From: a virus
UHGV virus genome: UHGV-0127428
Length of the DNA stretch: 30,373 nt
Direction: 5' to 3' (one strand)
The first letter of the stretch is position 1. Each line of letters opens with the position of its first letter. The notes beneath the pieces are model-generated. The model was not told the DNA's origin, made no database searches, and saw only the letters and a list, made by a program, of their open reading frames with translations. Positions 5,893 to 23,377 of this stretch are shown one piece after another. The position numbers were made by a program, and so were the translations under genes.

Positions 5893-5925
5893 CTTATTGA
5901 TTTAAATGGTGCCGATAATAGGAGT
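5893..5925. repeat. att core copy 1 (short): cttattgattt-aaa-tggtgccgataataggagt
   Basis: Its 19 nt tggtgccgataataggagt equal the reverse complement of the 3' end of tRNA-Thr (ACTCCTATTATCGGCACCA). Similarity to the tRNA stops after ggagt, where element B sequence begins. Same flank motif as copies at 18458 and 30324. Confidence 0.7.
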
Positions 5926-6067
5926 AAAACACTCGATTAATCTCGTGTTAATGCCATCACCTACGACCATTACTAATTGATTGAATCTTATAGAAAAATC
6001 ATCATTTTCTATGCGTCACAATCAATTTTCACATTACAAACGCTCCGACACTTTAGCCGGAGATTTT

Positions 6068-7345
6068 ATGAGATACAAGCCTAACCAATACTTAATCTGT
6101 GATTCTTACGGTAACTACTATTTAAGGATCACGCTGCCTGTGTATATGCAGCCCTTTTTTGAAGGAAAAAGGACGTTTGTCAGAAGTCTACACACAAGTA
6201 ATCTTCGTGTTGCACGTAGAAAGCGTGATCAGATTGCAGATGAATACCATTGCTTACGGGAGAGTGTTGCCCCTGTAAACAGCACAATAGAAAACACGCT
6301 GGAACTGTTACGCAGTAAGGCTAAATACGCCAAAACAGCTACCAGAGTGCAAGATACAGCGTCTTCGTGTCCGTCATTGCTTAAAATTCTTGAAATCTAC
6401 CTGACAATTAACAGCACGAAGAAGAAGCCAGCCACTTTAGCTAAGGCAAGAAAAGCGGTAGAGATGTTTCTCTCCTACCGTAAAAAGCCTGATATTGCAT
6501 TGCAAGATGTAAGCCGCACCACTGTTACAGGCTGGATTGAACACATGCAAAAAACTCTTTCACAACAATCAATTGCAAATTATATCAGTCCAATGGCCCA
6601 GCTATGGGAATTAGCTTCATCACGTTACCACGATGCGCCAGAAAGGGCGCTCTCCCCCTGGCGAGGGCATAGGCTTGATGTGGCACAAAGTAGAGAGAGC
6701 TACGAGGCATTTTCTAACAAAGAGCTATTGCAGGTGTTGCAAGTATTTTCCGGTAATTCAGCAGAAAACAAAGAAATGACGGCTTTGTGTCTTATCGGTT
6801 TATATACAGGTATGCGGATCAATGAGATAGCAAGTCTCACAATAGACGATGTGAAAGAGATCGAAGGTGTGCTGTGTTTTGAAATCACACAGGGAAAAAC
6901 GAAAGCTGCGGCACGTCTTGTGCCTGTGCATAGCCTTATCACTCCATTGGTGTTATCTCTTCGTGAAAAGCCTCACAATGGCTTTTTGTTCTATCACGCC
7001 AGCATTACAGAACGTGCTGACGGTAAACGCTCTACGTGGCATACACAACGATTTACAAGAGCTAAACGAAAGGCTTTAGGGGAAAAGGGAACAGAAAGGA
7101 AAGTGTTTCATTCTCTGAGACACGGAGTAGCACAGCTTCTTGATCGAAATCAAATTCCAGAGGACCGCATAGCTTTAATGTTGGGCCATCAGCGCGGCAA
7201 TACAGAAACATTCCGCACATATAGCAAGAATGCAGCTTCTCCAGTAGAGCTTAAAAAATATATTGAGCTTTTACGCTACCCTGAAATAGAGAAAGGCTTA
7301 TCAATCAATAAAAAATCAAATTTAAGGCGTAAAACAACGCTATAG
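6068..7345 (+). CDS. tyrosine recombinase/integrase of element B, distinct from the P22-type integrases
   Basis: Catalytic signature present: GMRINEIASL (Arg), HSLRHGVAQL (HxxR), GHQRGNTETFRTYSK (Tyr). Start chosen at the ATG at 6068 with ggag 6 nt upstream; the tool's TTG start at 5981 is less likely. Lies immediately inside the left boundary of element B. Confidence 0.75.
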   Translation: MRYKPNQYLICDSYGNYYLRITLPVYMQPFFEGKRTFVRSLHTSNLRVARRKRDQIADEYHCLRESVAPVNSTIENTLELLRSKAKYAKTATRVQDTASSCPSLLKILEIYLTINSTKKKPATLAKARKAVEMFLSYRKKPDIALQDVSRTTVTGWIEHMQKTLSQQSIANYISPMAQLWELASSRYHDAPERALSPWRGHRLDVAQSRESYEAFSNKELLQVLQVFSGNSAENKEMTALCLIGLYTGMRINEIASLTIDDVKEIEGVLCFEITQGKTKAAARLVPVHSLITPLVLSLREKPHNGFLFYHASITERADGKRSTWHTQRFTRAKRKALGEKGTERKVFHSLRHGVAQLLDRNQIPEDRIALMLGHQRGNTETFRTYSKNAASPVELKKYIELLRYPEIEKGLSINKKSNLRRKTTL

Positions 7346-7352
7346 ACGTAAT

Positions 7353-7386: not shown

Positions 7387-7425
7387 TGATTATCTCGTTA
7401 CAGAGCGTTTCATAGGCGTTTAAGG

Positions 7426-8085: not shown

Positions 8086-8132
8086 AATTTGTAATCCTTA
8101 TTTAAGGGGGCTAAACTGCCCCACAGTGATGA

Positions 8133-9974: not shown

Positions 9975-10008
9975 GTTAATTGTTTCCCTGTATTATGATT
10001 GTTGTTTG

Positions 10009-10206
10009 TTATTGTTTTTTAGAACAATAATATTGGATTGCTTCGAAAGTGCTGCACCCAGTCTGAAAGACACGCTGGCGCACATTATTTGCATCAATTT
10101 CTAAAAGGCGGCAAAGCGCCGATGTGTTTATAACTGATTCCTCGCTAATAGCTGCCAGTTCTTTTACAGATTTAAGAATTAATGCCTGTGAATTTTCTGT
10201 ATTCAT
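10009..10206 (-). CDS. small hypothetical protein (65 aa from the ATG at 10206)
   Basis: Internal ATG with gagag RBS; the longer 91-aa frame starts in a hydrophobic, unlikely leader. Confidence 0.3.
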   Translation of the reverse strand: MNTENSQALILKSVKELAAISEESVINTSALCRLLEIDANNVRQRVFQTGCSTFEAIQYYCSKKQ

Positions 10207-10360
10207 TGGTTTTCTCTCACATATATATATTTTTATTTGGGTTTGTAGACAGTAGAAAAACAAAAAGGGCAAGAGACAGCGCATATTTTGCTTATATGAT
10301 TATCCCTTACCCTTATTGCCCCGATTATTTCCAGACGTAGGGGAACGTCTTTAACACTTT

Positions 10361-11389
10361 TTACGCTACTGTGATCTGCACAGAGAAGCCAACACCGTGG
10401 TTAACCACAAGCGAGCTATTCTCGGTCACTACGTGCACTGCGTCGCCGCGATTCGATTCGAAAGCATAGCTGTAATACTCTTTAGCGCCTTGAGACAGCA
10501 GATCGAAGGAACTGGAAGGCGCGCCATAGATAGCTTGGTAAACACCTCCACCCTTAGCGAATTTAGGCACGGCTACAGCGTCAGCGGTCATATGTGCCAG
10601 CAGCAGCGGATCAGTCACTTTGATCAGATCAATGTTAGTTCCTGGAATGGTGAAAGTAGTTACGCCAGGCAGCAGAGAACGCACATTAAACACCACGTTT
10701 GCATCGTCTACAGGGCTTGCATATTGGAACGCATTGACCATGCCAACGCTGTAACGAATAGCGTTGAATGCCGCAGGTTTACAGAACACAACAACACGCT
10801 CAATGGTTGCAGCCTGGCTTTGTGCCTTAGCAATCATATCCGTATGCATCTGATCAAATTGCTTGAATACGGTCATTGTGTTGGTGCTGGATGCGTCAAC
10901 GGTTGCAGTCATTGGAGACACACCGAACAGAGTGCTGTAATCGATCAGAACATCGTCAGTTTTCGGGGTATGTGTCTTGCCAGAGAACAGAGAAGCCGCG
11001 AGGATGCTTTCTTTAGTGCGCTGGAATGCAACATTGTGTTTAGCGATATATTCCGCATACAGATCCGGCAGTGTTTCTTCAATAGAGCTTCCGGCTTTGC
11101 GTTTGCCTTGCACGTCCTGCGGTTTGATCAGGTCTTCACGCAGGAAGTAAGGGATTTCAATCAGCCATTCTTCCCCGTTCTCACGCTTAGTAACGTTATG
11201 CTCAGAGCTAAAACGGCTTGTAGGATGGTTGAACAGAGATTCATTGCTCTCGATAAGCTGGGAAACAGCCACTTTGTGACTTTCTACAGGCACAGGATCA
11301 GTAAAATCCAGAGTAGACAGTAGGTAATTGCGTGAGTCGTTTAATTCGAACAGTGGAGCAAGATCAACCACTTCATTTCCGATAATCAT
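10361..11389 (-). CDS. candidate major capsid protein (lambda gpE-like family)
   Basis: 342 aa, similar in size to lambda E (about 341 aa). The C-terminal ...GFSVQITVA resembles the recalled lambda E C-terminus ...FVSVQLA. It is directly preceded by a small decoration-sized gene, as D precedes E in lambda. Strong RBS. Family assignment is tentative. Confidence 0.45.
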   Translation of the reverse strand: MIIGNEVVDLAPLFELNDSRNYLLSTLDFTDPVPVESHKVAVSQLIESNESLFNHPTSRFSSEHNVTKRENGEEWLIEIPYFLREDLIKPQDVQGKRKAGSSIEETLPDLYAEYIAKHNVAFQRTKESILAASLFSGKTHTPKTDDVLIDYSTLFGVSPMTATVDASSTNTMTVFKQFDQMHTDMIAKAQSQAATIERVVVFCKPAAFNAIRYSVGMVNAFQYASPVDDANVVFNVRSLLPGVTTFTIPGTNIDLIKVTDPLLLAHMTADAVAVPKFAKGGGVYQAIYGAPSSSFDLLSQGAKEYYSYAFESNRGDAVHVVTENSSLVVNHGVGFSVQITVA

Positions 11390-11405
11390 TATTATTTATT
11401 CCTTC

Positions 11406-11780
11406 TTAAGATGTGAAAACAGAGTGGAAGCCTTCAAGCTGGAAGCCTTTAGCAGCGAGAGCTGCAATAGCAGCTTCTTTTACAGCGCCTTCGGCATTCA
11501 GGGCATCAGCTTTGATGCAAACGAGTCCGGCATTAGCACGAAGCACGTTAACTGTTTTATTTGAATCAGCAGTTACGAAGTCAGACACAACGACAAGAAC
11601 ATCAGCGCCGCTAACATATTTAGCGCCGGATGAATCAATGAGGTCGCCGCACGTTACATCTTGTGCAAGTGCTGCAAATTTTTTGCTTTCTACAGCCGCG
11701 TAAGGGTCGGTTGCATAGCTCACTACGTCAGTGATGCTTTTACGATGTGGGAAAACATCGCTTAATTTTAAAATAGCCAT
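11406..11780 (-). CDS. candidate head decoration-like protein (124 aa)
   Basis: Size and position immediately upstream of the capsid-like gene; Ala/Val/Gly-rich beta-type composition; aagga RBS. No direct motif evidence. Confidence 0.35.
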   Translation of the reverse strand: MAILKLSDVFPHRKSITDVVSYATDPYAAVESKKFAALAQDVTCGDLIDSSGAKYVSGADVLVVVSDFVTADSNKTVNVLRANAGLVCIKADALNAEGAVKEAAIAALAAKGFQLEGFHSVFTS

Positions 11781-11989
11781 TATTTTTCCTTAGATTGTTT
11801 GATTTGTTGAGCTTTAGCATTAATCAAATCTTGGTGAGATGGTTTATTGCTTTCAGCCTTATAAAGACGTTCACACTGTTTCTTTAATTCTGTGGGAGTG
11901 ATGCCAAGCGCGTAGGCTGTAGCATTCAACACATCTTCAGTTAGTGTTAACTTTTCATTGCCATATTTCAGGATAATTTCTTGTTTCAT
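11780..11989 (-). CDS. small hypothetical protein (69 aa), first gene of the capsid-like operon
   Basis: ORF whose stop overlaps the start of the next gene; lysine-rich and helical in composition. Confidence 0.35.
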   Translation of the reverse strand: MKQEIILKYGNEKLTLTEDVLNATAYALGITPTELKKQCERLYKAESNKPSHQDLINAKAQQIKQSKEK

Positions 11990-12983
11990 TTATATAACGA
12001 TTCCATTATGTTGGAATTTAATAAATCCCCCAGGCTATAAGAGGTTCAATCTGACAATAGCGAGGGGGATTTATTAACGTGTCGGGCAATACACAGCGAT
12101 AAGTAAAACCTTGAGGAGGTTTTAAACGTATCTCTAAGAATGCTTATTAAACATGCTTAAAGATAGGTTTAAAGGGTGAACAGATATTCCTGAAAACATG
12201 CTCTTAGGAAAACATGCGGAATCAATCAGGAATATCTATTCGGGGCGCGGTGGCTAACCGCTATCTTTCATGGTGTGGATGCACCAGTCAGATTTTAAGG
12301 AATCACTATTCCAATCTACTCACAGATTAAATTTTTAATAATGATTAACTACACCAACAGTAATCTACCGTTTCAGAAAATCGTTTTTACAACCAAAGCT
12401 TATAGATCCGCATTCTATAAAACCCGTTTTGCTATCAATATTTCCAAAGTTTATTGCACCATTCTTAGCTAAACTCTCTCTACTTGCGGCTAACGCTATG
12501 CAGATGATAGTTTTTTGACAACAACTTAATAGATTATTCTGTTACTAACTTCTGTCATTAAATAAGAGTTTAATGATGTTAGTAAATAGTTATAAAATAT
12601 AACTATCAGTGTAAGGCTCTTTAATGTTTTCGGACAAAATAAGGAGCTTTAGGATAAGCATAGATGAAAAATAAGAGCGGGAAGGGCAAGGAGATAACAC
12701 CTACCCGCTTTTATCAAAAATTAAGCACAATGCCTAACAACATTTATCAACACAACGTAGAAACAATCAACAATCAAAGAGGGAGTTATGATTATTCTAA
12801 AACTTCTTGAGGGGATGGAAGGTAATATTTGTTAGAGGTTAATGCCATTCAACCTTTGAGGCTATCACCTTCCATATGCAGGGATTTATGACAGGAAAAG
12901 GATTAACACCAGTCAAAACCTTTTTATCTACCCCTAATATTATTATATAATGAAATCGTTATAAATGCAAATGATTTTTATTA

Positions 12984-13292
12984 TCATTTAGAGAAAATAG
13001 CACTTTTTGCTAAATCATCTACTAATTGCTGAATCTCTTCACTTGCAGCCTTTAACGTGCTGGCGGTGTCTGTGATGGTTTGAGTGCACATCTTGGCATT
13101 GTCCTCAATTAGCTCTAAATCTCTCACCAGAGAGATAAAATCGTCAAGGCTTACATTCACCTTCATTAAGCTAATAACGCATTGAGAGAGCGTGTAATCG
13201 CATAAATCTGAATAGGCTTGATTTATTCTTGTTTGTAGTGAGATAGTCAGATCTAAAAGTTGTTCCATTGCATTGCTAATATCTTCTTCCAT
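12984..13292 (-). CDS. hypothetical acidic protein (102 aa)
   Basis: aaggag RBS; start overlaps the stop of the upstream gene (taATG); no recognisable family. Confidence 0.45.
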   Translation of the reverse strand: MEEDISNAMEQLLDLTISLQTRINQAYSDLCDYTLSQCVISLMKVNVSLDDFISLVRDLELIEDNAKMCTQTITDTASTLKAASEEIQQLVDDLAKSAIFSK

Positions 13293-13495
13293 TATGCGGC
13301 TTCTCCTTGTAATGCATCATTAATCATATTCAATACGATGTTAAAAGGTGTCTTGAGCGTCAGCACTTCATCACGGTAACGCTCTAATGCTTCGTAGTCT
13401 TCTGTTTCTTTTGCCAGTCGGATTAACTCAGCATAGTTTTTTGCATCAGACAGGATCATCTGAAATAATTGTGTTTCTTGAATATAGCCAATCAT
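13292..13495 (-). CDS. hypothetical protein (67 aa from the internal ATG)
   Basis: The internal start MIGYIQETQ... has a strong aaagga RBS; the longer 81-aa frame begins in the intergenic region. Confidence 0.4.
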   Translation of the reverse strand: MIGYIQETQLFQMILSDAKNYAELIRLAKETEDYEALERYRDEVLTLKTPFNIVLNMINDALQGEAA

Positions 13496-13552
13496 TATTT
13501 TTCCTTTTTTGAATATTTTCATTGGGCGCTTATACATACGCCCATCATTTTA

Positions 13553-13933
13553 TTAGTTAGAACGTTTGTTAGAAGCTAATGTATCTTCTAAATGAGCCAT
13601 CAGATCGACTTCCGATGCACCACCTACACAATTATTGAAAGCGTTAAATCCCAAAAAATGATGATAGGAGCTAAACCCTAAAAGCTGCCAACGTTTCAGA
13701 GTGCCATCAGAAATGATAGTTTGTTTTCTTGTTCTTGGGCGAAAGTAAACGCCTGGCATTGACTGGATTATTTCTAATTCTTCATCGCTTAATTCAGGGG
13801 ATTCTGTTTCAAGAATAAAGATTATCTCTTCCCCTGGATCGTTATTGGTGTGTGTCGGTGGACGTTGTCTTTTTGAATTGAAATTACTGTTTTTTTCAAT
13901 ACGTTTTAAGTTATTACGTTTCTTTTTTCCCAT
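13553..13933 (-). CDS. hypothetical protein (126 aa) with a basic N-terminus
   Basis: Strong RBS (aagaggga); N-terminal MGKKKRNNLKRIEK...; no recognisable family. Confidence 0.45.
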   Translation of the reverse strand: MGKKKRNNLKRIEKNSNFNSKRQRPPTHTNNDPGEEIIFILETESPELSDEELEIIQSMPGVYFRPRTRKQTIISDGTLKRWQLLGFSSYHHFLGFNAFNNCVGGASEVDLMAHLEDTLASNKRSN

Positions 13934-14116
13934 TTTCCCTCTTTTTATGTGGATTATAAAAACTTAATGTCATTGTTACGATGAATATCGCCATAAATGC
14001 ATTTGCCATATGTATTGCCCGATCTGTTGTTATTGATTGTTTGTGATAAACAATTCAAAATCTTTGTTTAATTTCAAAAGACGAAATGTAGTGCTGTTAT
14101 AAGCCATTTATTCTCC

Positions 14117-14686
14117 TTAGAATGGTATTGAATCGTATATTTCACTTTTTTCTCTTAGAGATATTATCAGATCGTGAAAAGCCTGTTTCTCAAGATAGAT
14201 ATTCTTTGAATCTAATGCTCGTTTTACAAAATCTTCTGTTTCTTCGTGCGGTGGTTTCTTCTTATCAAGGGAAAGAAGCCAAGTAAAAATTTCGGGCCGC
14301 TCAGGGAACTCTGATTCCTGTATTTCTTCTTCAACGATGATTTCGGAAACATTCAATATTCCATTAGATTCGTCTTCTTTCTCAGAAGGATCAGGTAGTG
14401 ATGATTCTCCTTTTGGAATATCAAGCACTCGATAAAGGTTAGAGCTTCCTGGTCGTGCATCTTTTATAATTAATCCCATTTCGAGCAATTTCTTAACCCT
14501 TTCTTCTGCTGCTCTTGGTGTTATGCCAAAAACATCGCCTATCTTAGCGTAAGAGGGAAATGCACGATCAAACCCTCTCAAATAGCAGTAAAGGTTTTTA
14601 GCACTATCTGTAAATTTATGCCCGTTTACTTGGCTTATTTTTAGAATCCACATAGGAACTTTTACAAATTGTTCTTCATTAATCAT
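14117..14686 (-). CDS. replication initiator-like protein (winged-HTH Rep family)
   Basis: Start set at the ATG at 14686 with aaggag 8 nt upstream. N-terminal region (LYCYLRGF...AFPSYAKIGDVFGITPRAAEERVKKLLEMGLI) is typical of plasmid/phage wHTH replication initiators; acidic C-terminus. An iteron array lies 1.3 kb upstream. Confidence 0.5.
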   Translation of the reverse strand: MINEEQFVKVPMWILKISQVNGHKFTDSAKNLYCYLRGFDRAFPSYAKIGDVFGITPRAAEERVKKLLEMGLIIKDARPGSSNLYRVLDIPKGESSLPDPSEKEDESNGILNVSEIIVEEEIQESEFPERPEIFTWLLSLDKKKPPHEETEDFVKRALDSKNIYLEKQAFHDLIISLREKSEIYDSIPF

Positions 14687-14739
14687 TAAAAATCTCCTTG
14701 ATGTAATCACGCTCTACGGCGCTACTATGGTGATAAAAA

Positions 14740-14910
14740 TCACTTGCTTTTGTTTGAGAGTGTTTCAGCCTCTCTTTTCAACATATCAAGAATGTAATCT
14801 GTAACAGTGATACGTTTACTTCTGGCTTCTTTAAACAACACCTGAAATACTTCATCAGGAATATGAAAGCAAGTGCGTGGTTGTCTTTTCTTTTCTGTAG
14901 TTTCGCTCAT
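14740..14910 (-). CDS. small ribbon-helix-helix (CopG/Arc-like) regulator candidate (56 aa)
   Basis: MSETTEKKRQPRTCFHIPDEVFQVLFKEARSKRITVTDYILDMLKREAE fits an RHH pattern (beta strand then two helices); strong RBS; immediately upstream of rep. Confidence 0.4.
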   Translation of the reverse strand: MSETTEKKRQPRTCFHIPDEVFQVLFKEARSKRITVTDYILDMLKREAETLSNKSK

Positions 14911-14931
14911 AGTTTTCTCCTTCTCCTGTTA

Positions 14932-15108
14932 TTATTCTTTCTCTGCCTTACGCAGTTCATCAATAATTTTTAGTGCATCGTCAAAGCATTTTTCACGCTC
15001 TGGATAACCACAGCGTCGCGCTGTGTTCCTGTTCATCCTTACTTTAAAACGATTAATCTCACCACGTTTCCAGGCTTCAACTACATCCTGTGGAGTAAAA
15101 TATTTCAT
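14932..15108 (-). CDS. small hypothetical protein (58 aa)
   Basis: ATG with a perfect aggagg SD; first gene of the rep operon. Confidence 0.35.
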   Translation of the reverse strand: MKYFTPQDVVEAWKRGEINRFKVRMNRNTARRCGYPEREKCFDDALKIIDELRKAEKE

Positions 15109-15960
15109 TAATTAGCCTCCTTATTCTATTTGGTTAAAAGAAAAAACACCTTGCAAGCCTTGTTGGGCTTCAAAGTGCGGTGCATTGGTTTAATTACTTA
15201 GAGGATAAGAATGTTTTCTGTCCCTAATATTACTTTACCACGACTAAAAGCTTTTGTCAACCCCTAGCCATAAAAATATTGATCATTTTCAGTGTGTTAT
15301 AATTTTTCTTAGCAATTCGTGCTCTTACGAGTGCTCCTATTCTTCCTTATTCTCTAAAACGCTCTAAAACGCCCTCTGACGAGGTTTTGATAAATACAAT
15401 ACATTCCCTTATGTAGAGGCTGTTTAGCTCGCCTACGGCTTGATTTAAGCGGTAGAATCTTATTTAACCTTCAACTACTAAAACCATTCTTTCTTTTTTG
15501 TTTGTTGTTGGTTGTTGTCTGTGTCTATGTGCTAACATCGCTAACGCGTAGCACACAAGGTTATTGCACTCGTCAGAGTATTGCACAATAGATTTTCTCT
15601 TAAATAGATTGATGATCGTTAGATGGTAGTTAGTTAATTATCGTTATGCGCACAGCGCAAGACTATTTAGCCTTACGCAAGCCGTAGGCTATTTGCACAT
15701 AGTAGATTACATATTCGTTGTGAGCGGCATTAGCGAACATAGATCTACTAACTAACATCAACAAACAAAAACTATGTGTTATGACAAGCAGTCTAACGAT
15801 TAACACTCTAACTTGTGCAAGGTTCTGGCGAATGCCAATAGATTAAGGGATAGTCAAGGACTCCCCTAACGGGTATCTCTATAATTATTCTTTAAAGATA
15901 AAAGAATTTATAAAAGATAATTTAATTGTAGTTTGATAGTTGATCTAATAGGTAACAAAA

Positions 15961-16096
15961 TTCTGTAGGGGTGGCTAACAGTTTTCTGTGGGGGTGTATA
16001 ACATAATTCTGTTAGGGTTGGGGTAACAGTTTTCTGTTAGGGTGCATATTTCTTTAAAAGTTAAGGATAACAGAATTCTGTGGGGGTAGTTCACAG
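15961..16096. repeat. iteron-like direct repeats (five copies of TTCTGTnGGGG...), candidate replication origin
   Basis: Copies start at 15961, 15984, 16007, 16032 and 16076, mostly 23-25 bp apart, consensus ttctgt(a/g/t)ggg(g/t)t; set in AT-rich noncoding DNA upstream of the rep operon. Confidence 0.6.
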
Positions 16097-16480
16097 TGAC
16101 CTACCGTTACATCCATTTATCACATAACATCTGTGCAATGATCTTCTAAAAGTGTTTCTTGCTACCAAAATTAAACATCTAAAACAGGCTTAAATTCAAT
16201 GTAATTGATGATTAATCCCTGTGTAATTCCTACGTAAAAATCCAATGAAAAGTAGCTTAAAAAGTGCAATGTTAGCTTTCTTCACTTTTACATCACTTTC
16301 GCAAAGCCGCATTACACACGGCTTACAGAGCACTATCAGAAATTGTTGATTAAAAATCAATCTATTATTTGTCGAACAAGTTTCCTTTAATGCAACAAAA
16401 AATTATTTTTTCAAAATAAACACACTATTTAATAGCTTGCTAATTTTACCAAAATGTAACTACATGATTCTCATGCAAGA

Positions 16481-16586
16481 CGTGTAGTGATAAAGCAGGC
16501 TAAATCACCACACTAAAAACCTTCGAATTTCGTAGTGAAAAAAGTCCTTTACACACCTAATCAACACGATCAATAATCACTACACG
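16481..16586. promoter_or_regulatory. candidate res-like recombinase binding region (11-bp inverted repeat)
   Basis: cgtgtagtgat (16481-16491) and its reverse complement atcactacacg (16576-16586), plus repeated atcaacac / atcaccaca motifs, immediately upstream of the serine recombinase gene. Confidence 0.25.
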
Positions 16587-16612
16587 CAAATCAACACAGA
16601 AGGAAAATGAAA

Positions 16613-17164
16613 ATGGCTAATATTGGATACATTAGGGTATCGACTGTCCAACAAAACACAGACCGTCAATTAGCTGGAGTAACTCTTGATAAAGTCTTTG
16701 AAGATAAAGCGTCAGGCAAGAATACCCAGCGCCCACAGTTTGAGGCAATGATGAACTATGTGCGTGAAGGTGATGTTTTGCATGTTCACAGCATTGATCG
16801 ACTTTGCCGTAATACAGCCGACCTACTGGCAACGGTTGAGCAATTAACAGAGCGCGGCGTGTCTGTGCATTTCCATAAAGAAGACTTTAAGACAGGGAAG
16901 AACTCTCCCGCAGGGAATATGATGCTCACAGTGCTTGCAGCAGTGGCACAAATGGAACGTGAAATGATGCTTGAGCGGCAACGTGAGGGGATCGCCGCAG
17001 CTAAGGCCGCTGGACGTATAGCAAAACGTGGTAATGGAAAAGCAATTGATCGAGCGGGAATTGTTGCCGCTCTCGCGAATGGTGGATCAATTCGGAGCGT
17101 AGCAAAAGATTTCAGTGTCAGCACACAGACGGTGCAACGTATCAAGAAAGAGCAGGAAGCGTAA
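16613..17164 (+). CDS. serine recombinase (resolvase/invertase family)
   Basis: N-terminal MANIGYIRVSTVQQ with the catalytic Ser, plus a C-terminal HTH-like tail (SIRSVAKDFSVSTQTVQRI). The start could instead be the ATG at 16607. Confidence 0.8.
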   Translation: MANIGYIRVSTVQQNTDRQLAGVTLDKVFEDKASGKNTQRPQFEAMMNYVREGDVLHVHSIDRLCRNTADLLATVEQLTERGVSVHFHKEDFKTGKNSPAGNMMLTVLAAVAQMEREMMLERQREGIAAAKAAGRIAKRGNGKAIDRAGIVAALANGGSIRSVAKDFSVSTQTVQRIKKEQEA

Positions 17165-17489
17165 TGCCTCCTGATATTTGAGAATTGTCGCTGCGTGGAC
17201 CTGACGCCGCTGATCTTCGCGTTAAACATTGATCACGTTTGCGCCGATTTCAGATAAAAAGGCAGCTATTAAGCAATACGTAACTTTTACAATTAGTGAA
17301 ATTATCTAAAACACAAGTTATATAGATGAGAAAATGAAATATTATCTTGAACAAATCAAACAAAACAACACATCATCTTGTTGACACCATGCAACGTGAA
17401 TAGTAAGCTATTATATGTGAAAATTTGCACATTGCATGCAATAAAAAATAAATGATACCTTATTGTTGTTAAATCAATAGGGGGTATCT

Positions 17490-17648
17490 ATGCGCTTTAT
17501 CTTATCCATTTTAAAAACCTGCAGAACCACAATTACTTTAGCTGTAATTGTTACCATCATATACCTCATCTATTTTACCCCTCGAGATAAAATCGATTCA
17601 CTAGCGATCATCGTTCATGCAATGGCTACATTAACTAAAAAACTTTAA
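17490..17648 (+). CDS. small hydrophobic peptide (52 aa)
   Basis: Strong SD (agggggt) before the ATG; MRFILSILKTCRTTITLAVIVTIIYLIYF... is a predicted single transmembrane helix; followed by a hairpin near 17663-17700. Confidence 0.35.
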   Translation: MRFILSILKTCRTTITLAVIVTIIYLIYFTPRDKIDSLAIIVHAMATLTKKL

Positions 17649-17714
17649 TAATTTCACTATCAGGCGCATAAACACATCTTTGATCGCTGGATGTGTTATG
17701 CGCCTACTGGTGAT

Positions 17715-17867
17715 TCAATCCTTAAGCCATTTCAACTCACTAAGGAGTTTTCTTTCTTCGTTCTCTCTCTGTTTACGCTCTAGCCAGGCTTTTCCTTCTG
17801 GCGTAGACAGGAACTTACGAGCGTGAATCTTGCGGTTATTACGTTTTATAGCTGCAATGTTTTTCAT
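17715..17867 (-). CDS. small basic protein (50 aa)
   Basis: ATG with gaggc SD; MKNIAAIKRNNRKIHARKFL...; convergent with the hydrophobic peptide gene. Confidence 0.3.
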   Translation of the reverse strand: MKNIAAIKRNNRKIHARKFLSTPEGKAWLERKQRENEERKLLSELKWLKD

Positions 17868-18457
17868 CGTGTTGCCTCTGTATTCATATGAAAATTAACA
17901 AGTTACATACTACACAGGGAGACTACGCATAAAACACAATACAAGTAAAGATACATTTTCAAGACAATAGGAGCCATAAAGCGCCTTTGATGGTTATACC
18001 AAAAAATAAGCGCCGTAGGCGTATCCACTAAAAAGGGCTTTTTCACAAAAGCTATGAAGTCTTAGCAGTTCTTCTCTTATCAGGCACCCGTTGTACTCCG
18101 GTGGACGAAACCGTGCTAGAGCTTGATTCTTTCCCGATCAAGTTAGGTTTTGAAGAGGTGGGCTTTGATCCACTATTGCACTTAAAACTCTTCCCATCAT
18201 TTAGCCTGTTTATCCTCTGCAACGTCTCACGACGTGTAGCATCATTGGACACCGCGCCAGGTGTGGAACATCTTGCTAAGAGTTTTGGTAGAAGGTTTAG
18301 AGACGGTGGCACGTCTTCCAGCTTCAAAGGAACTTGTTACGAGGTTGAGCCTGGGAACTACTCGCCCATACGTGTTACACTACCAAAGCCCATAACAACG
18401 TATAGGCGTTTGTAAGTGATAACAGAAGATACAATTTCTTAGAGAAGTTAAGCTAAG

Positions 18458-18519
18458 TTATTGATTTTCTTAATGGTGCCGATAATAGGAGTCGAACCTA
18501 CGACCTTCGCATTACGAAT
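18458..18519 (-). repeat. att core copy 2 carrying a 46-nt 3' fragment of tRNA-Thr (18474-18519)
   Basis: The reverse complement of 18474-18519 equals the tRNA-Thr(CGU) sequence from the anticodon loop to the CCA end (ATTCGTAATGCGAAGGTCGTAGGTTCGACTCCTATTATCGGCACCA). Similarity to the tRNA stops at 18520, so this is a displaced partial copy, not a gene. Flank ttattgatttt matches the other two copies. Confidence 0.8.
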
Positions 18520-18624
18520 CTGTAGCACCAATCATAACTATCTGTTTTAGCAAGCATTAACCGCATTCACTAAGCTATAGTTGATGGCACAAACAGAAAG
18601 TTGATGCATGATGTTGCCATGTGT

Positions 18625-18644
18625 ATGGCACAAATACGGCACAA
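18625..18644. repeat. 20-bp direct repeat atggcacaaatacggcacaa, also at 30271-30290; candidate integrase arm-type site
   Basis: Perfect 20-bp copy just inside each end of element C; a half-copy gatggcacaaa at 18583-18593. The right-hand copy lies within the 3' end of the int coding sequence. Confidence 0.4.
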
Positions 18645-18751
18645 CAATCTTAAAACATGTAGCCACGCATCCACAGAAGAGCACAAAGCCTTGCAATCCA
18701 GTGCAAAGCTTTGTGTGTCTCAGTTTTGTCTCATAGGTAACTCTGTGTTAA

Positions 18752-19042
18752 CTACGATGCAAGAATCCATACCAATAAGCATCCGATAATTGGGAAAGAA
18801 AAATCCATCAGGCTTGCCACATCCCATGCACGCGGATCAAAACCGCCCCACCACGGCATATTCATACGCTTGCCATGCCCGAACATTTCAATCCAGCGAT
18901 ATTCTGCCTGGGTATGTTCACGCGCAATGAAGAACGTACAACCGGCTATCGCTCCGTAAGCCCAGTTTCCGGTAAAAAGGCCAATCAGTACCTGCGCAGC
19001 CACAGCACAAAGCGCATGAAGTAAGGGGCTTATATCCATCAT
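18752..19042 (-). CDS. small integral membrane protein (96 aa, about three predicted TM helices)
   Basis: Hydrophobic segments LLHALCAVAAQVLIGLF, AYGAIAGCTFFIA and FSFPIIGCLLVWILAS; divergent from the GT2 gene. Confidence 0.45.
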   Translation of the reverse strand: MMDISPLLHALCAVAAQVLIGLFTGNWAYGAIAGCTFFIAREHTQAEYRWIEMFGHGKRMNMPWWGGFDPRAWDVASLMDFSFPIIGCLLVWILAS

Positions 19043-19323
19043 AAATTCTTCGACGAAACCACAGCATAATTTCTTTTGTTATTAAATCGGAAAACATTGT
19101 AACATGCGTTACTGGATTACTTGCTTCACTGTGAATGATATACATGATAGAATCTGCAACTCAAATCATATAAAACTTAAGCCGTTCCGCGTTTTATGCC
19201 CGTTGCTTCCACGGGCTATTTTCACAAAGATCACTCACAAAAATAATTATATTCACTTTTACTCTAATAAAGAATAAAATAATCAATCGTCAATTTGTAC
19301 CATTAATTTTGTTTCAAGCCTTC

Positions 19324-19352
19324 CCCGCTTTCGCGAGAATGCGGGGTTTTTT
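19324..19352 (+). terminator. rho-independent terminator-like hairpin
   Basis: ccccgc ... gcgggg stem followed by ttttttat, in the AT-rich intergenic region between the membrane protein gene and the GT2 gene. Confidence 0.4.
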
Positions 19353-19632
19353 ATATGGACATAACTTCCCACCCACTATTTGTACACTTATAATTCAGAT
19401 TCGCTGAAAGACGTTCAGAATGTACTTTGACAGATTTAATCATGTTTCACTTATCACCAACAAAATCATCACCAAGAAAACTATTGCACACATTAACTAT
19501 ACCTCGTCGCATTGCAGCATGGTATGCAGATGACATCATTAAATGATGTTACAATGCTGAGATATAATGCTTCATGTTATGATGATAGCATTTTGAACAT
19601 TCATAAACACTACTAATATTAGAGGCTACGAT

Positions 19633-20937
19633 ATGAGAAATGATATTACTGCCACGTCTGAAAATATAGTGGATTTTTTTAAACAGACATCATTAAATGA
19701 CTACATAAAAAAAGCATGGCTATACAATGAAAATTGCTTCGTTGTTGATTTTGAATATAAGAGCGTGAAATTTGCTCTGGATTTCTCATATGATCAAACA
19801 ATCGATAAACAAAATTTAAATGTTGATTTCGTACTAAGAAGCAATCCGTTTAACTTCACAATTGCGAAGGGGAAAAATAAAGAACGTATATCATCAGAGG
19901 CAAATCTTACATCTGCATTGGCTTCTTCCCTTCTAAAAATAACAAGTGTAATTAACATCATTAACTCTTGTCGCCCTATTGATGTTAGTGTAGTTATACC
20001 TGTACATAACCGCGAAAAACTTATTCTTGAATGTATTAACTCACTTAATAACCAAACAATTAACAAGGATCGTTTTGAGGTTGTTTTCATCGATGATTGC
20101 TCAAGTGACAAAAGCATTGCCGCTATAGAATATAATATATCACCAGATATTAATTACAGAATTATCCGCCGCGAAGTTGGTTCTGGCAACGCTTCAACTC
20201 CACGCAATGAGGGTATAAAATCAGCAAAAGGTCGTTATATTTTTTTCATGGATTCTGATGATTATATTGACGAAACTCTTCTTGAGAGAGGGATGCAAAT
20301 TGCTGATAAAAATAACAGTGATGTTGTTTACTTCAAAATTGCATCAGATGGAAGTCGTGAGGTGCCGATCCGTCCATACAAAGTAAAAATTGTAGATAAA
20401 GCCGATATAACCAAGCACCATCTATTGCGGTCATTAACTATATTCAAATTCTTCAGAAGAAACATGCTTAAAGAGCATAACATACTCTTTAATCCTGCTA
20501 TCACTGTAGCTGAAGATAAAATATTCATGGTTCACGTTTTGTCTGTGGCCAAGAATATATCCATTCTTGCCGACAAAGATTATTATCACATAACACTTCA
20601 TGATGGAAGTCATTTATCACGACAAAAATTCCCTCTTGAGGATAGGCATTTCATTCTCAACTCGATCATTAACACTATTTACTTTTGCGAAAAAACGGAT
20701 GAAGAAAAGGCCAAGCTTTACAATGCGTGGCTGGTGATATGCCTTGAAATGATGGAAAAGGTATGTGGTAAAGCAGGTGGCAACGAGCAAAAGAAACGGA
20801 TGTTCTTTAACATGCTTTCAACAGCTTTCAATATCCGCTCAGATTTAGTAAATCAGGATATGATTTATCCCCCTCAGCGTAAGTTCATCAAACCTTTTTT
20901 ACAAAATAATTATGAAGGTTTTATAGCTGAAATTTAA
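19633..20937 (+). CDS. family-2 glycosyltransferase (GT2) with an N-terminal extension of unknown function
   Basis: GT2 core VSVVIPVHNREKLILECINSLNNQ...FEVVFIDDCSSD...YIFFMDSDDYID with a DxD motif, preceded by about 115 aa of unknown sequence; no obvious TM segment; very AT-rich codon usage. Confidence 0.75.
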   Translation: MRNDITATSENIVDFFKQTSLNDYIKKAWLYNENCFVVDFEYKSVKFALDFSYDQTIDKQNLNVDFVLRSNPFNFTIAKGKNKERISSEANLTSALASSLLKITSVINIINSCRPIDVSVVIPVHNREKLILECINSLNNQTINKDRFEVVFIDDCSSDKSIAAIEYNISPDINYRIIRREVGSGNASTPRNEGIKSAKGRYIFFMDSDDYIDETLLERGMQIADKNNSDVVYFKIASDGSREVPIRPYKVKIVDKADITKHHLLRSLTIFKFFRRNMLKEHNILFNPAITVAEDKIFMVHVLSVAKNISILADKDYYHITLHDGSHLSRQKFPLEDRHFILNSIINTIYFCEKTDEEKAKLYNAWLVICLEMMEKVCGKAGGNEQKKRMFFNMLSTAFNIRSDLVNQDMIYPPQRKFIKPFLQNNYEGFIAEI

Positions 20938-20943
20938 AACATT

Positions 20944-20962
20944 GCCCAGCATGTAGCTGGGC
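20944..20962. terminator. hairpin between convergent GT2 and tailspike genes
   Basis: gcccagc atgta gctgggc perfect 7-bp stem; lacks a strong T-run. Confidence 0.3.
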
Positions 20963-20983
20963 ATACATTAAAAGTATCACATG

Positions 20984-23377
20984 TCAACCATTTGGTATTG
21001 ACTTTAATAATCTTTCCAGATAATTAATCCTTGATGTGATATTAGCAATATTCTGCTCATGGTTATGATATAGTGCGCTCATTGCCAGAAACATTAACTC
21101 GTCATAGCGCACTGATAATTTCCTTCCTGATTCTACAAGTAACCTTATTTCACCCGTTTCATACTCTTCTTCCTCTGTGATTTCATCATGCTGGCCCGAT
21201 TCTTCATCAATCAAAATTTTTCTGGTTACATTTCTTGTTGCATAGACTTTCTCGTACTCGTCATCCCACTCTTCATAGCAAAGAACTCCATAAGAAAATG
21301 CATCAAGCCCTTCAGATTCAAAGATGGATTGTATATCTTGCGCAATTACACCGATATGCTCACGCGCTGATAAGCCTTTTTCTTTTACAGCATCCTTCAT
21401 TCTGAATTTTTTTATCAGCGGGTAAATAGCCATTCCAACCCGTAGTTCTGCATCAGATAATGAAGTTTCATCCTGCTTGTAATTTCTGTCGCTGGTTACG
21501 ATGGGACTATTATTGATATACAGGTTTCTGACAGTATTCGACTGTGTACCAATATCATAAAGATTTGAACCTGATGGTCGAAAATGACCTAATTCTGTTA
21601 ATACCCATCTGTCACGCAAGCCGTCACTCTCTCCCATGGTTCCAAAGTAGAAAGCAACCGGGATATTGTCTCCGGAAGGATTACCTCTTGTGACGCATTT
21701 AATGCGTGCGCATTGCACAGCCTTACTACCTGTATCACCAGCCCATACATGAGTACCCAATACATCCCCTGTCTGCAGAGCTCCAAAATTATCAGTTGAT
21801 ACAACACCAGAGCGAGACTTATACATTATTGCTCTTGGTCCTTCTGCGGTGTCTGACTGATGCCGGGAAACCCATGAGTTGCTCATCCCTTCCGTGCCGT
21901 TTGAAGCTAACTGCATTCCACCAGTAATTCCGCCATCAAGAAACAATATAGGGTTATCCCGGTTAGTTTGAATACCCTTTCTTGTTGGCCAAACTGTCCA
22001 GTGAAAAGTATCATTGTACTCCCTTACTCCATATTTGAACTCCGGGGAGCCAGAACTATGAAGACCAGTATTACTGGATACAGAACGGCTTGCTTTGCTT
22101 TGCACTACCGAACCAGACCTGCCTATATCAAACAGATATACATTTTTCCCGTTCTCAGCAACTCCTTTATATGTGCATATCCCCAGCGTTAAAACATACC
22201 CACTCTCCGTTCTAATTACTGTTAGGGACTCAGGCTCTTTATAAACAGGAGTTCCTGTACTGTCAGATTTTGCTTCATCATCACCAACAGTTGAAATATC
22301 TACTCGCTCAATAAACCTGCCTGTTAAGTCAAATACGTAAATATAATTAGTCATGCCAACATACGTATGTGACTCAAGTATGTAAATGTATGCCCCATCG
22401 CAAGCAATTGATTGGGTAAATGCTTCTTGTGATGGTTTTTGATAGCTAAACTCAACTAAATAATCATCACTATAATCAGTTTTATGAGCTCTGTTATTCC
22501 ACATGCTGACTATGTCGAAAACACGAACCGTGCAGGTAATTCCATCCGATGAAATTTTCTTGGCAAGTAGATAGTTTTCACAACTTGATACAGTTGGAGT
22601 AGAGCTTGCGCTCATTCCATCATAGGGGAACAACTTCCAGGTGATAAAACCTTCAGATACTCCGTTGGTTGTCCCTGTGTAACTCAATATATTTTCCATC
22701 GAAATACATTGATTGGCGGCATCGGTTCCATAAGGCTTCGATGTCCACAGCACGACAGTACCATCAGGATTATGATGCAATCCAAGCCCCTGATGCCCAA
22801 GTTCAGTAGAACGGGTTCTGTCGTATCTTCCTAGTTCACCAGAATTCGTCACGTCAAAGGCATTAATGCAATAACCGTATGCTGTGGTAGATGATAAAGT
22901 AAAAATCTTGTCGTTAATTTCATCATAACAACACCCCTGAATGACCGCATATAACCCCCCCGCACCTTCAGTTCTGCGCAACGTGTGTCTGGTGTTATAT
23001 ACTTTTGGCATTCCGGAAAATATCAATGGCTCTCTTTTATCTCTTAATTTAAGATCACCAATCGCAATTCGTTTACTGCCATCACGAATAAAAGAACCAT
23101 TTATATAGCTATTTTCAATAAAACTTTTAGTAACAAAAAATGCTCTTCCACTTAAATCAATAACCCTATTTTTTATATCCATTTCCAACGCGACAAATGC
23201 TTCAGTATCATCGCTAATCCCATCCCCCTTAGCTCCAAAATAAAGAGGAGACATATTTAGCATATCATTTGATAATACTTTTTGTTTAAACTGATCCGGG
23301 TCATACTTCAGCACATTAGGAAAATAGAACTGCTGCGCACCGTACGCATCATAAACAGCCATAGAATGGCCTTGCAC
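20984..23377 (-). CDS. tailspike/tail-fibre protein, 5'-truncated: end of a P22-type head-binding domain, beta-helix domain, C-terminal intramolecular chaperone (S74-like) domain
   Basis: N-terminus [29 protein letters not shown] matches the end of the P22 tailspike head-binding domain, then a pectate-lyase-like motif [14 protein letters not shown]. The C-terminal region (SDAELRV...[10 protein letters not shown]...) matches the S74 chaperone pattern. P22-like sequence continues upstream of the GTG start to a stop at 23429-23431. Confidence 0.65.

What the first reader, a model, noticed from the sequence alone, without database searches (positions are those of the whole stretch)
16481..17164. 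Serine recombinase with upstream inverted repeats in an element that also has a tyrosine integrase
Having both recombinase classes suggests separate roles: integration/excision by the tyrosine enzyme, and multimer resolution or inversion by the serine enzyme. The 11-bp inverted repeat cgtgtagtgat / atcactacacg (16481-16491, 16576-16586) just upstream is a plausible res site.
Basis: partly seen in the sequence, partly recalled or inferred. Interest (0 to 1): 0.4.

Follow-up and report, generated by a model that had tools for sequence, protein, structure and literature searches.

The report
Resolvase gene with its res-like site
A small phage-like island in an E. coli chromosome carries an intact resolvase-type serine recombinase whose binding sites and promoter sit just upstream of the gene. 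This is an ordinary "untangle my own DNA circles" module, placed in an island family I found no description of.

Summary
The 11-bp inverted repeat is exact at 16481-16491 / 16576-16586. The gene, 16613-17164, encodes an intact 183-aa small serine recombinase. A tyrosine integrase lies in the same 12.5-kb island, which is bounded by thrW att cores at 5905-5925 and 18472-18492.

The repeat is not a unit in itself. Its arms are two of six TGTAGTGAT-like half-sites (16483-16598), arranged as three dimer-sized subsites around the gene's own promoter.

Homologues keep the same geometry but carry a different 9-mer. The 9-mer tracks the recognition helix of the C-terminal HTH, not the catalytic domain. 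The window protein is itself a natural domain-swap that shows this.

I found no second site cluster in the window and no inverted arrangement in about 18 related copies, so inversion is not supported.

Best reading: an autoregulated res/resolvase module that resolves multimers of the excised island, which has an iteron-type origin. Relatives sit on 2-6-kb plasmids, other islands and a P22-like phage. The function is inferred and was not tested.

It is a new member of a known kind, of modest interest. The host island family seems undescribed and may be the more interesting object.

The parts
16483..16512 (.). Subsite A, the candidate crossover site. TGTAGTGAT (16483-16491) and its inverted partner ATCACCACA (16504-16512) are separated by a 12-bp spacer, AAAGCAGGCTAA. 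The centre lies between 16497 and 16498.
   Evidence: The same 9+12+9 geometry and a tAAGCAnGCTAt-like spacer occur in homologues of other specificity classes. It is the subsite farthest from the gene, like site I of Tn3 res. That it is the crossover site is inferred, not shown.
16531..16568 (.). Subsite B. A weaker half-site CGTAGTGAA (16531-16539, 7/9) pairs with an inverted half-site ATCAACACG (16560-16568, 7/9). The -35 hexamer lies between them.
   Evidence: Homologues have a strong forward half-site at the same position (about -83 from the ATG) and a reverse one at about -54.
16576..16598 (.). Subsite C. Two half-sites in direct repeat: ATCACTACA (16576-16584) and ATCAACACA (16590-16598), 14 bp start to start. 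They overlap the -10 hexamer, the predicted transcription start and the 5' UTR.
   Evidence: The same positions (-38 and -24) hold in L005, L016, L017, L041, L040 and L062. In the STRTV(M/Q)N class the last pair is inverted instead.
16548..16577 (+). Predicted sigma-70 promoter of the recombinase gene, embedded in the site: TTTACA, 18-nt spacer, AATAAT.
   Evidence: 10 of 12 matches, tied for best in 15000-18600. The homologue L005 has TTTACA-17-TATAAT at the same place. The TTG of the -35 is conserved across specificity classes.
16613..17164 (+). Small serine recombinase gene, 183 aa, with an N-terminal catalytic domain and a C-terminal HTH. The RBS GAAGGA is at 16599-16604.
   Evidence: PF00239 at 1.1e-38, HTH_23. 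Tn3 and gamma-delta resolvase at about 1e-27, Gin at 7e-25. R8, S10, D67, R68 and R71 equivalents are present in the alignment. The 98%-identity cluster has 401 member sequences.
17153..17173 (.). GC-rich hairpin spanning the stop codon; a possible terminator.
   Evidence: the scan scored it on the - strand. Weak evidence.
15953..16097 (.). Context: five iterons of about 23 bp (TAACAGnnTTCTGTnGGGGT), the probable replication origin of the island.
   Evidence: An O-like initiator gene lies at 14117-14710. The iteron block differs between related islands while its flanks are conserved.
5981..7345 (+). Context: tyrosine integrase of the same island. The likely start is 6068, giving 425 aa as annotated in EC195.
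5905..5925 (+). Context: left thrW att core of the island.
18472..18492 (+). Context: right thrW att core of the island. A third copy at 30336-30356 closes the next element.

Best explanation
Window 16483-17164 is a self-contained res/resolvase module.

Shown by sequence comparison:
- Six TGTAGTGAT-like half-sites form three dimer-sized subsites. A is an inverted pair with a 12-bp spacer. B is an inverted pair with a 20-bp spacer. C is a direct pair.
- These are the cognate binding sites of the C-terminal HTH of the recombinase encoded immediately downstream.
- The gene's promoter lies inside subsites B and C.

Inferred:
- Recombinase dimers fill the three subsites. This represses the gene's own promoter.
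- When two copies of the site lie in direct repeat on one supercoiled circle, the two sites synapse and strands are exchanged at the centre of subsite A (16497/16498) through the Ser-10 nucleophile. The multimer is split into monomers.
- Such a substrate would be a dimer or higher multimer of the excised island replicating from its iteron origin.
- The tyrosine integrase at the other end of the island handles integration and excision at thrW.
- In the integrated single-copy state the module only autoregulates.
For: 1. Protein. It is an intact small serine recombinase with the catalytic residues aligned to Tn3 and gamma-delta resolvase.

2. Site clustering. Four strict half-sites lie within 116 nt just upstream of the gene. 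This was reached in 1 of 2000 shuffles, and no other cluster exists in 30 kb.

3. Conserved geometry. Half-sites sit at about -132(+), -111(-), -83(+), -54(-), -38(-) and -24(-) from the ATG in homologues that share little other upstream sequence.

4. The 9-mer tracks the recognition helix.
- STQTVQRIK goes with TGTAGTGAT (window, L005, L016, L017).
- STNTISRIK and STNTVSRIK go with TGT(A/T)GCGAT (L041, L063, L064).
- SLNTVYR goes with TGTATCGAT (L040, L062).
- STRTVQNIK goes with TGTAGTAAT (L039).
- STRTVMNIK goes with TGTTG(T/C)AAT (L008, L012-L015).

5. Natural domain swap. The window protein's catalytic domain is 91% identical to the STRTVMNIK class. Its C-terminal domain is 89% identical to the L005 class. 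Its site carries the L005-class motif.

6. Helical phasing. The A-to-B spacing is 48-49 or 58-60 bp in different homologues, a difference of one helical turn.

7. Promoter. It is embedded in the site, as expected for an autoregulated resolvase gene (own knowledge of Tn3/gamma-delta).

8. Module boundaries. Homology between distant elements starts exactly at the outer edge of subsite A (16479/16481) and ends at the stop codon.

9. Context fits circular replicons.
- The island has iterons and an O-like initiator.
- Relatives are on circular plasmids of 1.95-5.8 kb, in one of which the recombinase is the only annotated gene.
- Others are in other integrative islands and in a P22-like phage next to its tyrosine integrase.

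10. Conserved placement. Islands of the same family at three different att sites (thrW, rluB/yciQ, tRNA-Gly) keep the module at the same end, opposite the integrase.

11. Sequence conservation. The site is invariant apart from one base in 7 E. coli copies.
Against: - No experiment. Binding, recombination and directionality are all inferred.
- Some thrW islands lack the module. L002 has an unrelated 183-aa gene in the slot, L004 has a divergent allele, and L003 is IS-disrupted. It is therefore dispensable for island persistence.
- The R-interface residues that hold the Tn3 synaptosome together (R2, R32, K54, E56; PMC9943657) are A, K, Y and R here (alignment). Any synaptic complex must differ in detail.
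- Subsite A spans 30 bp. I recall Tn3/gamma-delta site I as 28 bp, but I did not check that figure here.
- Two of the six half-sites are weak (7/9). A loose motif scan was not significant.
- Nothing shows that the island excises and replicates as a circle.
- An element packaged from concatemers would not obviously benefit from resolving them.
Confidence: 0.6

Rival explanations
1. Hitch-hiking accessory module. The res/recombinase cassette is functional in itself. It sits in a variable cargo slot near the att end, acquired from small plasmids, and does nothing for the island's life cycle.
For: - The slot 16357/16388 to 17129/17265 is variable among thrW islands. It can hold another allele, an unrelated gene, or an IS-split copy.
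- The nearly identical cassette (94-97% over 16212-17181/17265) sits in islands whose remaining sequence gave no megablast match, implying recent exchange.
- The closest other contexts are tiny plasmids.
Against: - The cassette occupies the same position, opposite the integrase and next to the origin, in family members with three different integrases and att sites.
- It is intact with an invariant site in the copies examined.
- A resolution function is exactly what a small iteron replicon needs.
Confidence: 0.15
2. Monomer recovery after transfer. A 12.5-kb island packaged by headful into a roughly 40-kb helper capsid would arrive as a linear concatemer of about three copies. Recombination between two res copies would cut out a circular monomer without RecA. 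The tyrosine integrase then inserts it.
For: - The island is 12,546 bp between att cores, about one third of a lambdoid or P22-like genome.
- No portal or terminase gene was recognised among the island ORFs scanned.
- Lambdoid and P22-like prophage remnants share the same att site and sit on both sides.
- A homologue lies in a P22-like phage.
Against: - Tn3-type resolvases need supercoiled substrates with sites in cis (own knowledge; topology discussed in PMC9943657). Linear injected DNA is a poor substrate.
- There is no evidence of packaging or of a helper.
- This is entirely speculative.
Confidence: 0.1
3. Regulator only. The protein acts mainly as a DNA-binding repressor at its own promoter, or at other promoters, and no longer recombines.
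For: Half-sites cover the -35/-10 spacer, the -10 hexamer and the 5' UTR.
Against: - All catalytic residues aligned to resolvases are retained.
- Subsite A lies 36 bp or more upstream of the -35 hexamer and has no obvious regulatory purpose. Even so, its geometry and spacer are the most conserved part across classes.
- No further site clusters occur in the window.
Confidence: 0.07
4. DNA invertase. The enzyme flips a neighbouring segment, such as a promoter switch, in the manner of Hin, Gin or Pin.
For: - The best PHROG family is labelled 'DNA invertase'.
- Gin scores almost as well as Tn3 resolvase.
Against: - No second site or site cluster in inverted orientation exists anywhere in the 30-kb window.
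- All related copies examined are colinear, with no flipped segment.
- Accessory half-sites next to the gene are a resolvase trait.
- No tail-fibre or surface gene is adjacent.
Confidence: 0.03

Closest known systems
Tn3 / gamma-delta resolvase with its three-subsite res
   Same: - A protein of about 183 aa with the same two-domain layout, and the best solved-structure matches (about 1e-27).
- Site immediately upstream of the gene.
- Three dimer-sized subsites, with the most symmetric one farthest from the gene.
- Half-sites begin with TGT.
- Different spacer lengths in each subsite.
- Gene promoter inside the site (res anatomy from PMC9943657 and own knowledge).
   Different: - No Tn3-family transposase or terminal repeats; the host is an integrative phage-like island.
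- A five-residue gap relative to Tn3 resolvase near residues 21-25.
- R-interface residues R2/R32/K54/E56 are A/K/Y/R here.
- Subsite C is a direct, not an inverted, pair in this allele.
- Subsite A spans 30 bp.
Sin / beta-type resolvases of Gram-positive plasmids
   Same: - Plasmid-type multimer resolution role.
- An accessory subsite whose half-sites are in direct repeat (PMC9943657), as in subsite C here.
   Different: - Weaker sequence match (Sin 1e-18).
- Sin res has two subsites plus an HU/IHF site. Here there are six half-sites, and I did not look for a host-factor site.
Plasmid-borne resolvases of Gram-negative plasmids, such as RP4/RK2 ParA and R46 Per (own knowledge, not tested here)
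   Same: A resolvase with an adjacent multi-subsite res, used for multimer resolution of a circular replicon rather than for transposition. The closest relatives found here are on plasmids of 2-6 kb.
   Different: I made no sequence comparison with these proteins. No plasmid record outside this uncharacterised family exceeded 60% identity.
Hin / Gin / Cin / Pin DNA invertases
   Same: Same protein superfamily and size. Gin matches at 7e-25. The PHROG label is 'DNA invertase'.
   Different: There is no pair of inverted crossover sites, no invertible segment and no orientation polymorphism. Phage Pin-like invertases are only about 35% identical.
P1 Cre/lox (functional analogue; own knowledge)
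   Same: A temperate element that carries a dedicated site-specific recombinase to resolve multimers, or cyclise, its circular form.
   Different: Cre is a tyrosine recombinase with a simple 34-bp site and no topological filter.

Membership tests
Small serine recombinases (resolvase/invertase superfamily) | N-terminal catalytic domain with the serine nucleophile and conserved Arg/Asp residues | tested here: met
   PF00239 at 1.1e-38 over residues 6-137. R8, S10, D36, R45, D67, R68 and R71 equivalents are identical in the alignment to Tn3 and gamma-delta resolvase.
Small serine recombinases (resolvase/invertase superfamily) | C-terminal helix-turn-helix DNA-binding domain; total length about 180-200 aa | tested here: met
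   HTH_23 and HTH_Tnp_ISL3 hits at residues 146-182. The alignment to resolvase runs to the C-terminus. Length 183 aa.
Resolvase with multi-subsite res (Tn3/gamma-delta type) | Cluster of three dimer-binding subsites (six half-sites) immediately upstream of the recombinase gene | tested here: met
   Six half-sites at 16483-16598. The same positions recur in 12 or more homologous loci of five or more specificity classes. The cluster was reached in 1 of 2000 shuffles. This is sequence-level evidence only.
Resolvase with multi-subsite res (Tn3/gamma-delta type) | The half-sites are the cognate binding sites of this protein's HTH | tested here: met
   The motif co-varies with the recognition helix and follows the C-terminal domain in a natural chimera. 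Physical binding was not tested.
Resolvase with multi-subsite res (Tn3/gamma-delta type) | All three subsites are inverted repeats | tested here: not met
   Subsite C is a direct pair in this allele and its class. The STRTV(M/Q)N class has three inverted pairs.
Resolvase with multi-subsite res (Tn3/gamma-delta type) | Part of a Tn3-family transposon (adjacent tnpA, terminal inverted repeats) | tested here: not met
   No transposase is recognised among the island's ORFs. The module sits in an att-bounded island.
Resolvase with multi-subsite res (Tn3/gamma-delta type) | R-interface residues R2, R32, K54, E56 that build the synaptosome (PMC9943657) | tested here: not met
   The aligned residues are A, K, Y and R (alignment).
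Resolvase with multi-subsite res (Tn3/gamma-delta type) | Resolution-only activity on directly repeated sites in supercoiled DNA | not testable with these tools
   Needs an in vivo or in vitro recombination assay.
Sin/beta-type resolvase | res made of a crossover site, one direct-repeat accessory site and a host bending-protein site | tested here: inconclusive
   A direct-repeat subsite exists (C), but there are three subsites. I did not search for a host-factor site. Sin scores lower than Tn3 resolvase.
DNA invertases (Hin/Gin/Cin/Pin) | Two crossover sites in inverted orientation flanking a segment next to the gene | tested here: not met
   There is no second site or cluster in 30 kb. No suitable long-range inverted repeat around the gene was found.
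DNA invertases (Hin/Gin/Cin/Pin) | Both orientations of the segment seen among related genomes | tested here: not met
   The top E. coli hits are single colinear pieces. Seven annotated loci and 11 IMG/VR loci are colinear with the window.
DNA invertases (Hin/Gin/Cin/Pin) | Fis-dependent enhancer within or near the gene | not tested
   I made no reliable in-silico test.
Large serine integrases | Length over 400 aa, with Recombinase and zinc-ribbon domains | tested here: not met
   183 aa. Only weak partial N-terminal matches to XisF and Ccr models, far below their cut-offs.

The most novel reading that the evidence does not exclude
The res/resolvase module may be a standard organ of an undescribed family of about 12.5-kb integrative phage-like islands. 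These carry a tyrosine integrase, capsid-E-like, tape-measure-like and Dit-like genes, an O-like or helicase replication protein, an iteron origin and a serine resolvase.

The module would let these islands live a double life. They could persist as a plasmid-like circle, or recover circular monomers from the roughly three-copy concatemers that a 40-kb helper capsid would deliver. The modular HTH-plus-site swaps would then define private recombination specificities that keep co-resident islands and small plasmids from fusing.
Probability: 0.15. Interest if true: 0.6.

Novelty: new member of a known kind. Interest (0 to 1): 0.3.

Why it matters
In itself this is a textbook-type res/resolvase module, so the main value is a correct annotation. 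RefSeq calls the gene only 'recombinase family protein', and the site is unannotated.

Two by-products are useful.
- The family offers a set of natural specificity variants. There are at least five helix/9-mer pairs with identical site geometry, plus a natural catalytic-domain/HTH chimera. That is ready material for a serine-recombinase recognition code or for orthogonal recombinase tools.
- The module marks a phage-like island family. Sequence from its origin/recombinase region (16100-17400) matches about 13% of complete E. coli genomes. The family occupies three att sites and appears to combine integrative and plasmid-like replication features. I found no description of it.

Tried and rejected
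- Invertible segment. I searched 14500-21500 for long-range inverted repeats and the whole window for further copies of the motif. Nothing usable turned up. Related genomes were checked for flipped pieces and none was found.
- Loose half-site scan (up to 2 mismatches). The cluster was not significant: 36 of 200 shuffles reached it. I replaced it with a strict scan.
- Known RNA families in 11500-19700 and in four small replicons carrying homologues: no hits. There is thus no ColE1-type RNA I/II to classify the small plasmids.
- Defence-system link. PADLOC gave nothing meaningful for the recombinase or its neighbours. However, some homologues do sit beside Kiwa or type I R-M genes.
- Resolvase versus invertase by sequence score. 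This is inconclusive: Tn3 100 bits, Gin 91 bits. No NCBIfam subfamily reaches its cut-off. I did not build a formal phylogeny with characterised references.
- Similarity between the island's non-coding DNA and the small plasmids that carry homologues: none beyond the res-plus-gene module.
- Literature. Searches for a thrW satellite or island of this type, and for resolvases in phage satellites, found nothing specific.
- IMG/VR hits are mostly prophage calls from isolate genomes. They say nothing about packaging.

Full report
**1. What is at the coordinates**

In 5000 dinucleotide-preserving shuffles of the 137 nt upstream of the gene, an exact inverted repeat of 11 nt or more appeared once.

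The ORF 16607-17164 matches the Resolvase catalytic domain (PF00239, 1.1e-38) and a C-terminal HTH. The real start is almost certainly ATG 16613. GAAGGA lies 8 nt upstream of it, homologues begin MANIGY or MSNIGY, and RefSeq copies are 552 bp.

The best solved-structure matches are Tn3 and gamma-delta resolvase (about 1e-27). Gin invertase (7e-25) and Sin (1e-18) follow. The catalytic Arg-8, Ser-10, Asp-67, Arg-68 and Arg-71 equivalents are all present.

**2. The surrounding element**

The window is E. coli chromosome at the thrW attachment site. The 21-nt att core AATGGTGCCGATAATAGGAGT occurs three times, at 5905-5925, 18472-18492 and 30336-30356. Three elements therefore lie in tandem.

- A lambdoid prophage remnant ends with an SfV/SfIV-like tyrosine integrase at 4729-5892.
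- A 12.5-kb island occupies 5926-18471.
- A P22-like remnant follows, with a family-2 glycosyltransferase and a tailspike.

The island stands alone at thrW in strain EC195. Its content, in order:

| Feature | Coordinates | Evidence |
|---|---|---|
| Tyrosine integrase | 5981/6068-7345 | |
| Dit-like gene | 7426-8085 | |
| Tape-measure-like gene | 8133-9974 | |
| Capsid-E-like gene | 10361-11389 | |
| O-like replication initiator | 14117-14710 | |
| ORF-poor AT-rich stretch with five 23-bp iterons | about 15100-16600; iterons at 15953-16097 | |
| Serine recombinase | 16613-17164 | |

**3. Anatomy of the upstream region**

The 11-bp repeat is part of a larger array. TGTAGTGAT-like 9-mers lie at these positions:

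| Half-site | Coordinates | Orientation | Quality |
|---|---|---|---|
| A-left | 16483-16491 | forward | strict |
| A-right | 16504-16512 | reverse | strict |
| B-left | 16531-16539 | forward | 7/9 |
| B-right | 16560-16568 | reverse | 7/9 |
| C1 | 16576-16584 | reverse | strict |
| C2 | 16590-16598 | reverse | strict (8/9) |

Allowing at most one mismatch, four copies fall within 116 nt. Only 1 of 2000 block shuffles of the whole window reached such a cluster, and no other cluster of three or more exists in the 30 kb. A looser scan was not significant.

The six half-sites group as three dimer-sized subsites. A is an inverted pair with a 12-bp spacer. B is an inverted pair with a 20-bp spacer. 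C is a direct pair, 14 bp start to start.

A sigma-70-like promoter, tied for the best match in 15000-18600, is TTTACA (16548) - 18 nt - AATAAT (ending 16577). It lies inside B and C. Bound protein would therefore cover the -35/-10 spacer, the -10 hexamer and the 5' UTR.

**4. Evidence that these are the recombinase's own sites**

Upstream regions of homologues from plasmids, islands and a phage share little sequence with the window. Yet they carry half-sites at the same distances from the ATG: about -132(+), -111(-), -83(+), -54(-), -38(-) and -24(-). The 9-mer differs between groups and follows the recognition helix of the HTH:

| Recognition helix | 9-mer | Loci |
|---|---|---|
| STQTVQRIK | TGTAGTGAT | window, L005, L016, L017 |
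| STNTISRIK / STNTVSRIK | TGT(A/T)GCGAT | L041, L063, L064 |
| SLNTVYR | TGTATCGAT | L040, L062 |
| STRTVQNIK | TGTAGTAAT | L039 |
| STRTVMNIK | TGTTG(T/C)AAT | L008, L012-L015 |

Only the outer TGT/ACA of the half-sites, parts of the subsite-A spacer (tAAGCAnGCTAt) and the TTG of the -35 are conserved across all groups.

The window protein is a natural chimera. Residues 1-128 are 91% identical to the STRTVMNIK group, while its C-terminal part is only 49-58% identical to that group. Residues 129-183 are 89% identical to the L005 protein, whose catalytic domain is only 62% identical. DNA similarity shows the same mosaic. The site upstream carries the L005-type motif, so the motif follows the DNA-binding domain and not the catalytic domain.

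Two further details fit a functional nucleoprotein complex.
- The distance from A to B is either 48-49 or 58-60 bp in different homologues. The difference is one helical turn.
- Similarity between distant elements begins exactly at the outer edge of subsite A (16479/16481) and ends at the stop codon.

Among seven E. coli copies the whole site is invariant except for G16586, which is A elsewhere.

**5. Resolution or inversion**

Inversion needs a partner site in inverted orientation. None exists in the window. The top E. coli matches, seven annotated loci and eleven IMG/VR loci are all colinear with the window.

Several accessory half-sites next to the gene, wrapped around its promoter, are the layout of res sites. 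Tn3 res has three subsites with different spacers. Sin res has an accessory site whose half-sites are in direct repeat (PMC9943657). The arrangement here combines features of both.

Sequence similarity alone cannot decide, and I built no formal tree. Differences from Tn3 are as follows.
- No transposase is present.
- The protein has a five-residue gap relative to Tn3 resolvase near residues 21-25.
- The R-interface residues R2/R32/K54/E56 are A/K/Y/R here (PMC9943657).
- Subsite A spans 30 bp.

**6. Where relatives live**

- Relatives 64-71% identical sit on circular plasmids of 1.95-5.8 kb. In one 1952-bp plasmid the recombinase is the only annotated gene. They also sit on roughly 4.7-kb circular contigs from Salmonella.
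- Others sit in integrative islands: beside Kiwa in an element with a large serine integrase, in another pao/thrW island, beside a type I R-M system, and in a VapE-type island.
- One lies in a P22-like phage contig directly after its tyrosine integrase.
- Islands of the same family as the window's occupy two further sites, between rluB and yciQ and at a tRNA-Gly gene. They have different integrases but keep the recombinase at the same end.
- One copy has landed on an IncF plasmid.

Part of the query 16100-17400 is found in 720 of 5426 complete E. coli genomes, and 221 hold at least 80% of it.

The slot is variable. Some thrW islands carry a divergent allele with different upstream repeats (L004), an unrelated 183-aa gene (L002), or an IS-split copy (L003).

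**7. Most likely mechanism**

Shown, by sequence comparison only: an intact catalytic serine recombinase, and a cognate six-half-site array with an embedded promoter.

Inferred: the protein fills the array and represses its own promoter. When the excised island replicates from its iteron origin and forms dimers or higher multimers, two directly repeated arrays synapse. Strands are exchanged at the centre of subsite A (16497/16498), returning monomers. The tyrosine integrase handles thrW integration and excision.

Rival readings are listed separately with their odds. They are a hitch-hiking cassette, recovery of monomers from packaged concatemers, a pure repressor, and an invertase.

**8. Verdict**

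This is a new member of a known kind, of modest interest in itself.

The modular helix/9-mer pairs, and the apparently undescribed island family that hosts the module, are the more interesting leads. Literature searches found nothing specific on either.

Noticed in passing
window 5905-5925, 18472-18492, 30336-30356: There are three identical thrW att cores, so the window holds a tandem array of three elements. These are a lambdoid remnant with an SfV-like integrase (4729-5892), the 12.5-kb island, and an 11.8-kb P22-like remnant. The last carries a GT2 gene (19633-20937), a tailspike (20984-23377) and an unscanned 386-aa ORF at its far end (29163-30323), which may be another integrase.
   Followed up: partly
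window 15953-16097: Five iterons of about 23 bp (TAACAGnnTTCTGTnGGGGT) lie in a 1.5-kb ORF-poor AT-rich stretch, downstream of an O-like initiator gene (14117-14710). This is the probable island origin. The iteron block differs between related islands, while 16083-16387 beside it is conserved, even in islands without the recombinase.
   Followed up: partly
window 5926-18471; L001, L049, L050: This is a phage-like island family of about 12.5 kb. It carries a tyrosine integrase, Dit-like, tape-measure-like and capsid-E-like genes, a replication gene and an origin. No portal or terminase was recognised. It is found at thrW, between rluB and yciQ, and at a tRNA-Gly gene. Sequence from its origin/recombinase region matches 720 of 5426 complete E. 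coli genomes. I found no paper describing it; it may be an unclassified satellite.
   Followed up: partly
L039 (NZ_AP027492.1, 1952 bp); also NZ_CP130129.1 (2000 bp) and NZ_CP116175.1 (1985 bp): These are circular plasmids of about 2 kb. In the one I opened (L039) the only annotated gene is a 69%-identical recombinase with its own three-subsite array. There is no recognisable replication gene and no ColE1-type RNA, so how they replicate is unclear.
   Followed up: partly
window 16613-17164 versus P0006-P0008 and P0030: The recombinase is a natural chimera. Its catalytic domain is 91% identical to one lineage, and its HTH domain is 89% identical to another. The upstream site matches the HTH donor.
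   Followed up: yes
window 16357/16388 to 17129/17265; L002, L003, L004: This is a variable slot near the att end of thrW islands. It can hold this recombinase, a divergent allele with different upstream repeats (L004), an unrelated 183-aa gene on the other strand whose product has a hydrophobic N-terminus suggesting export (L002), or an ISVsa5-split copy (L003).
   Followed up: partly
L038 (NZ_CP126938.1, IncF plasmid pEND_Eco 19019-1, 31-45 kb): An IS3-riddled copy of the island, with a 100%-identical recombinase, sits on a conjugative IncF plasmid next to sopAB.
   Followed up: no
L062 (Logan ERR15285207 contig, 36.9 kb): A P22-like phage contig carries a homologue with a TGTATCGAT-type array. 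The gene lies between its tyrosine integrase and the terminase genes. The pairing of the two recombinase classes is therefore not peculiar to the island.
   Followed up: no
window 17490-17648 (+) and 17715-17867 (-): Two small ORFs (52 and 50 aa) between the recombinase and the att core are annotated as hypothetical proteins in RefSeq islands. They are retained in the islands I opened, including L002, which lacks the recombinase. They match no family.
   Followed up: no
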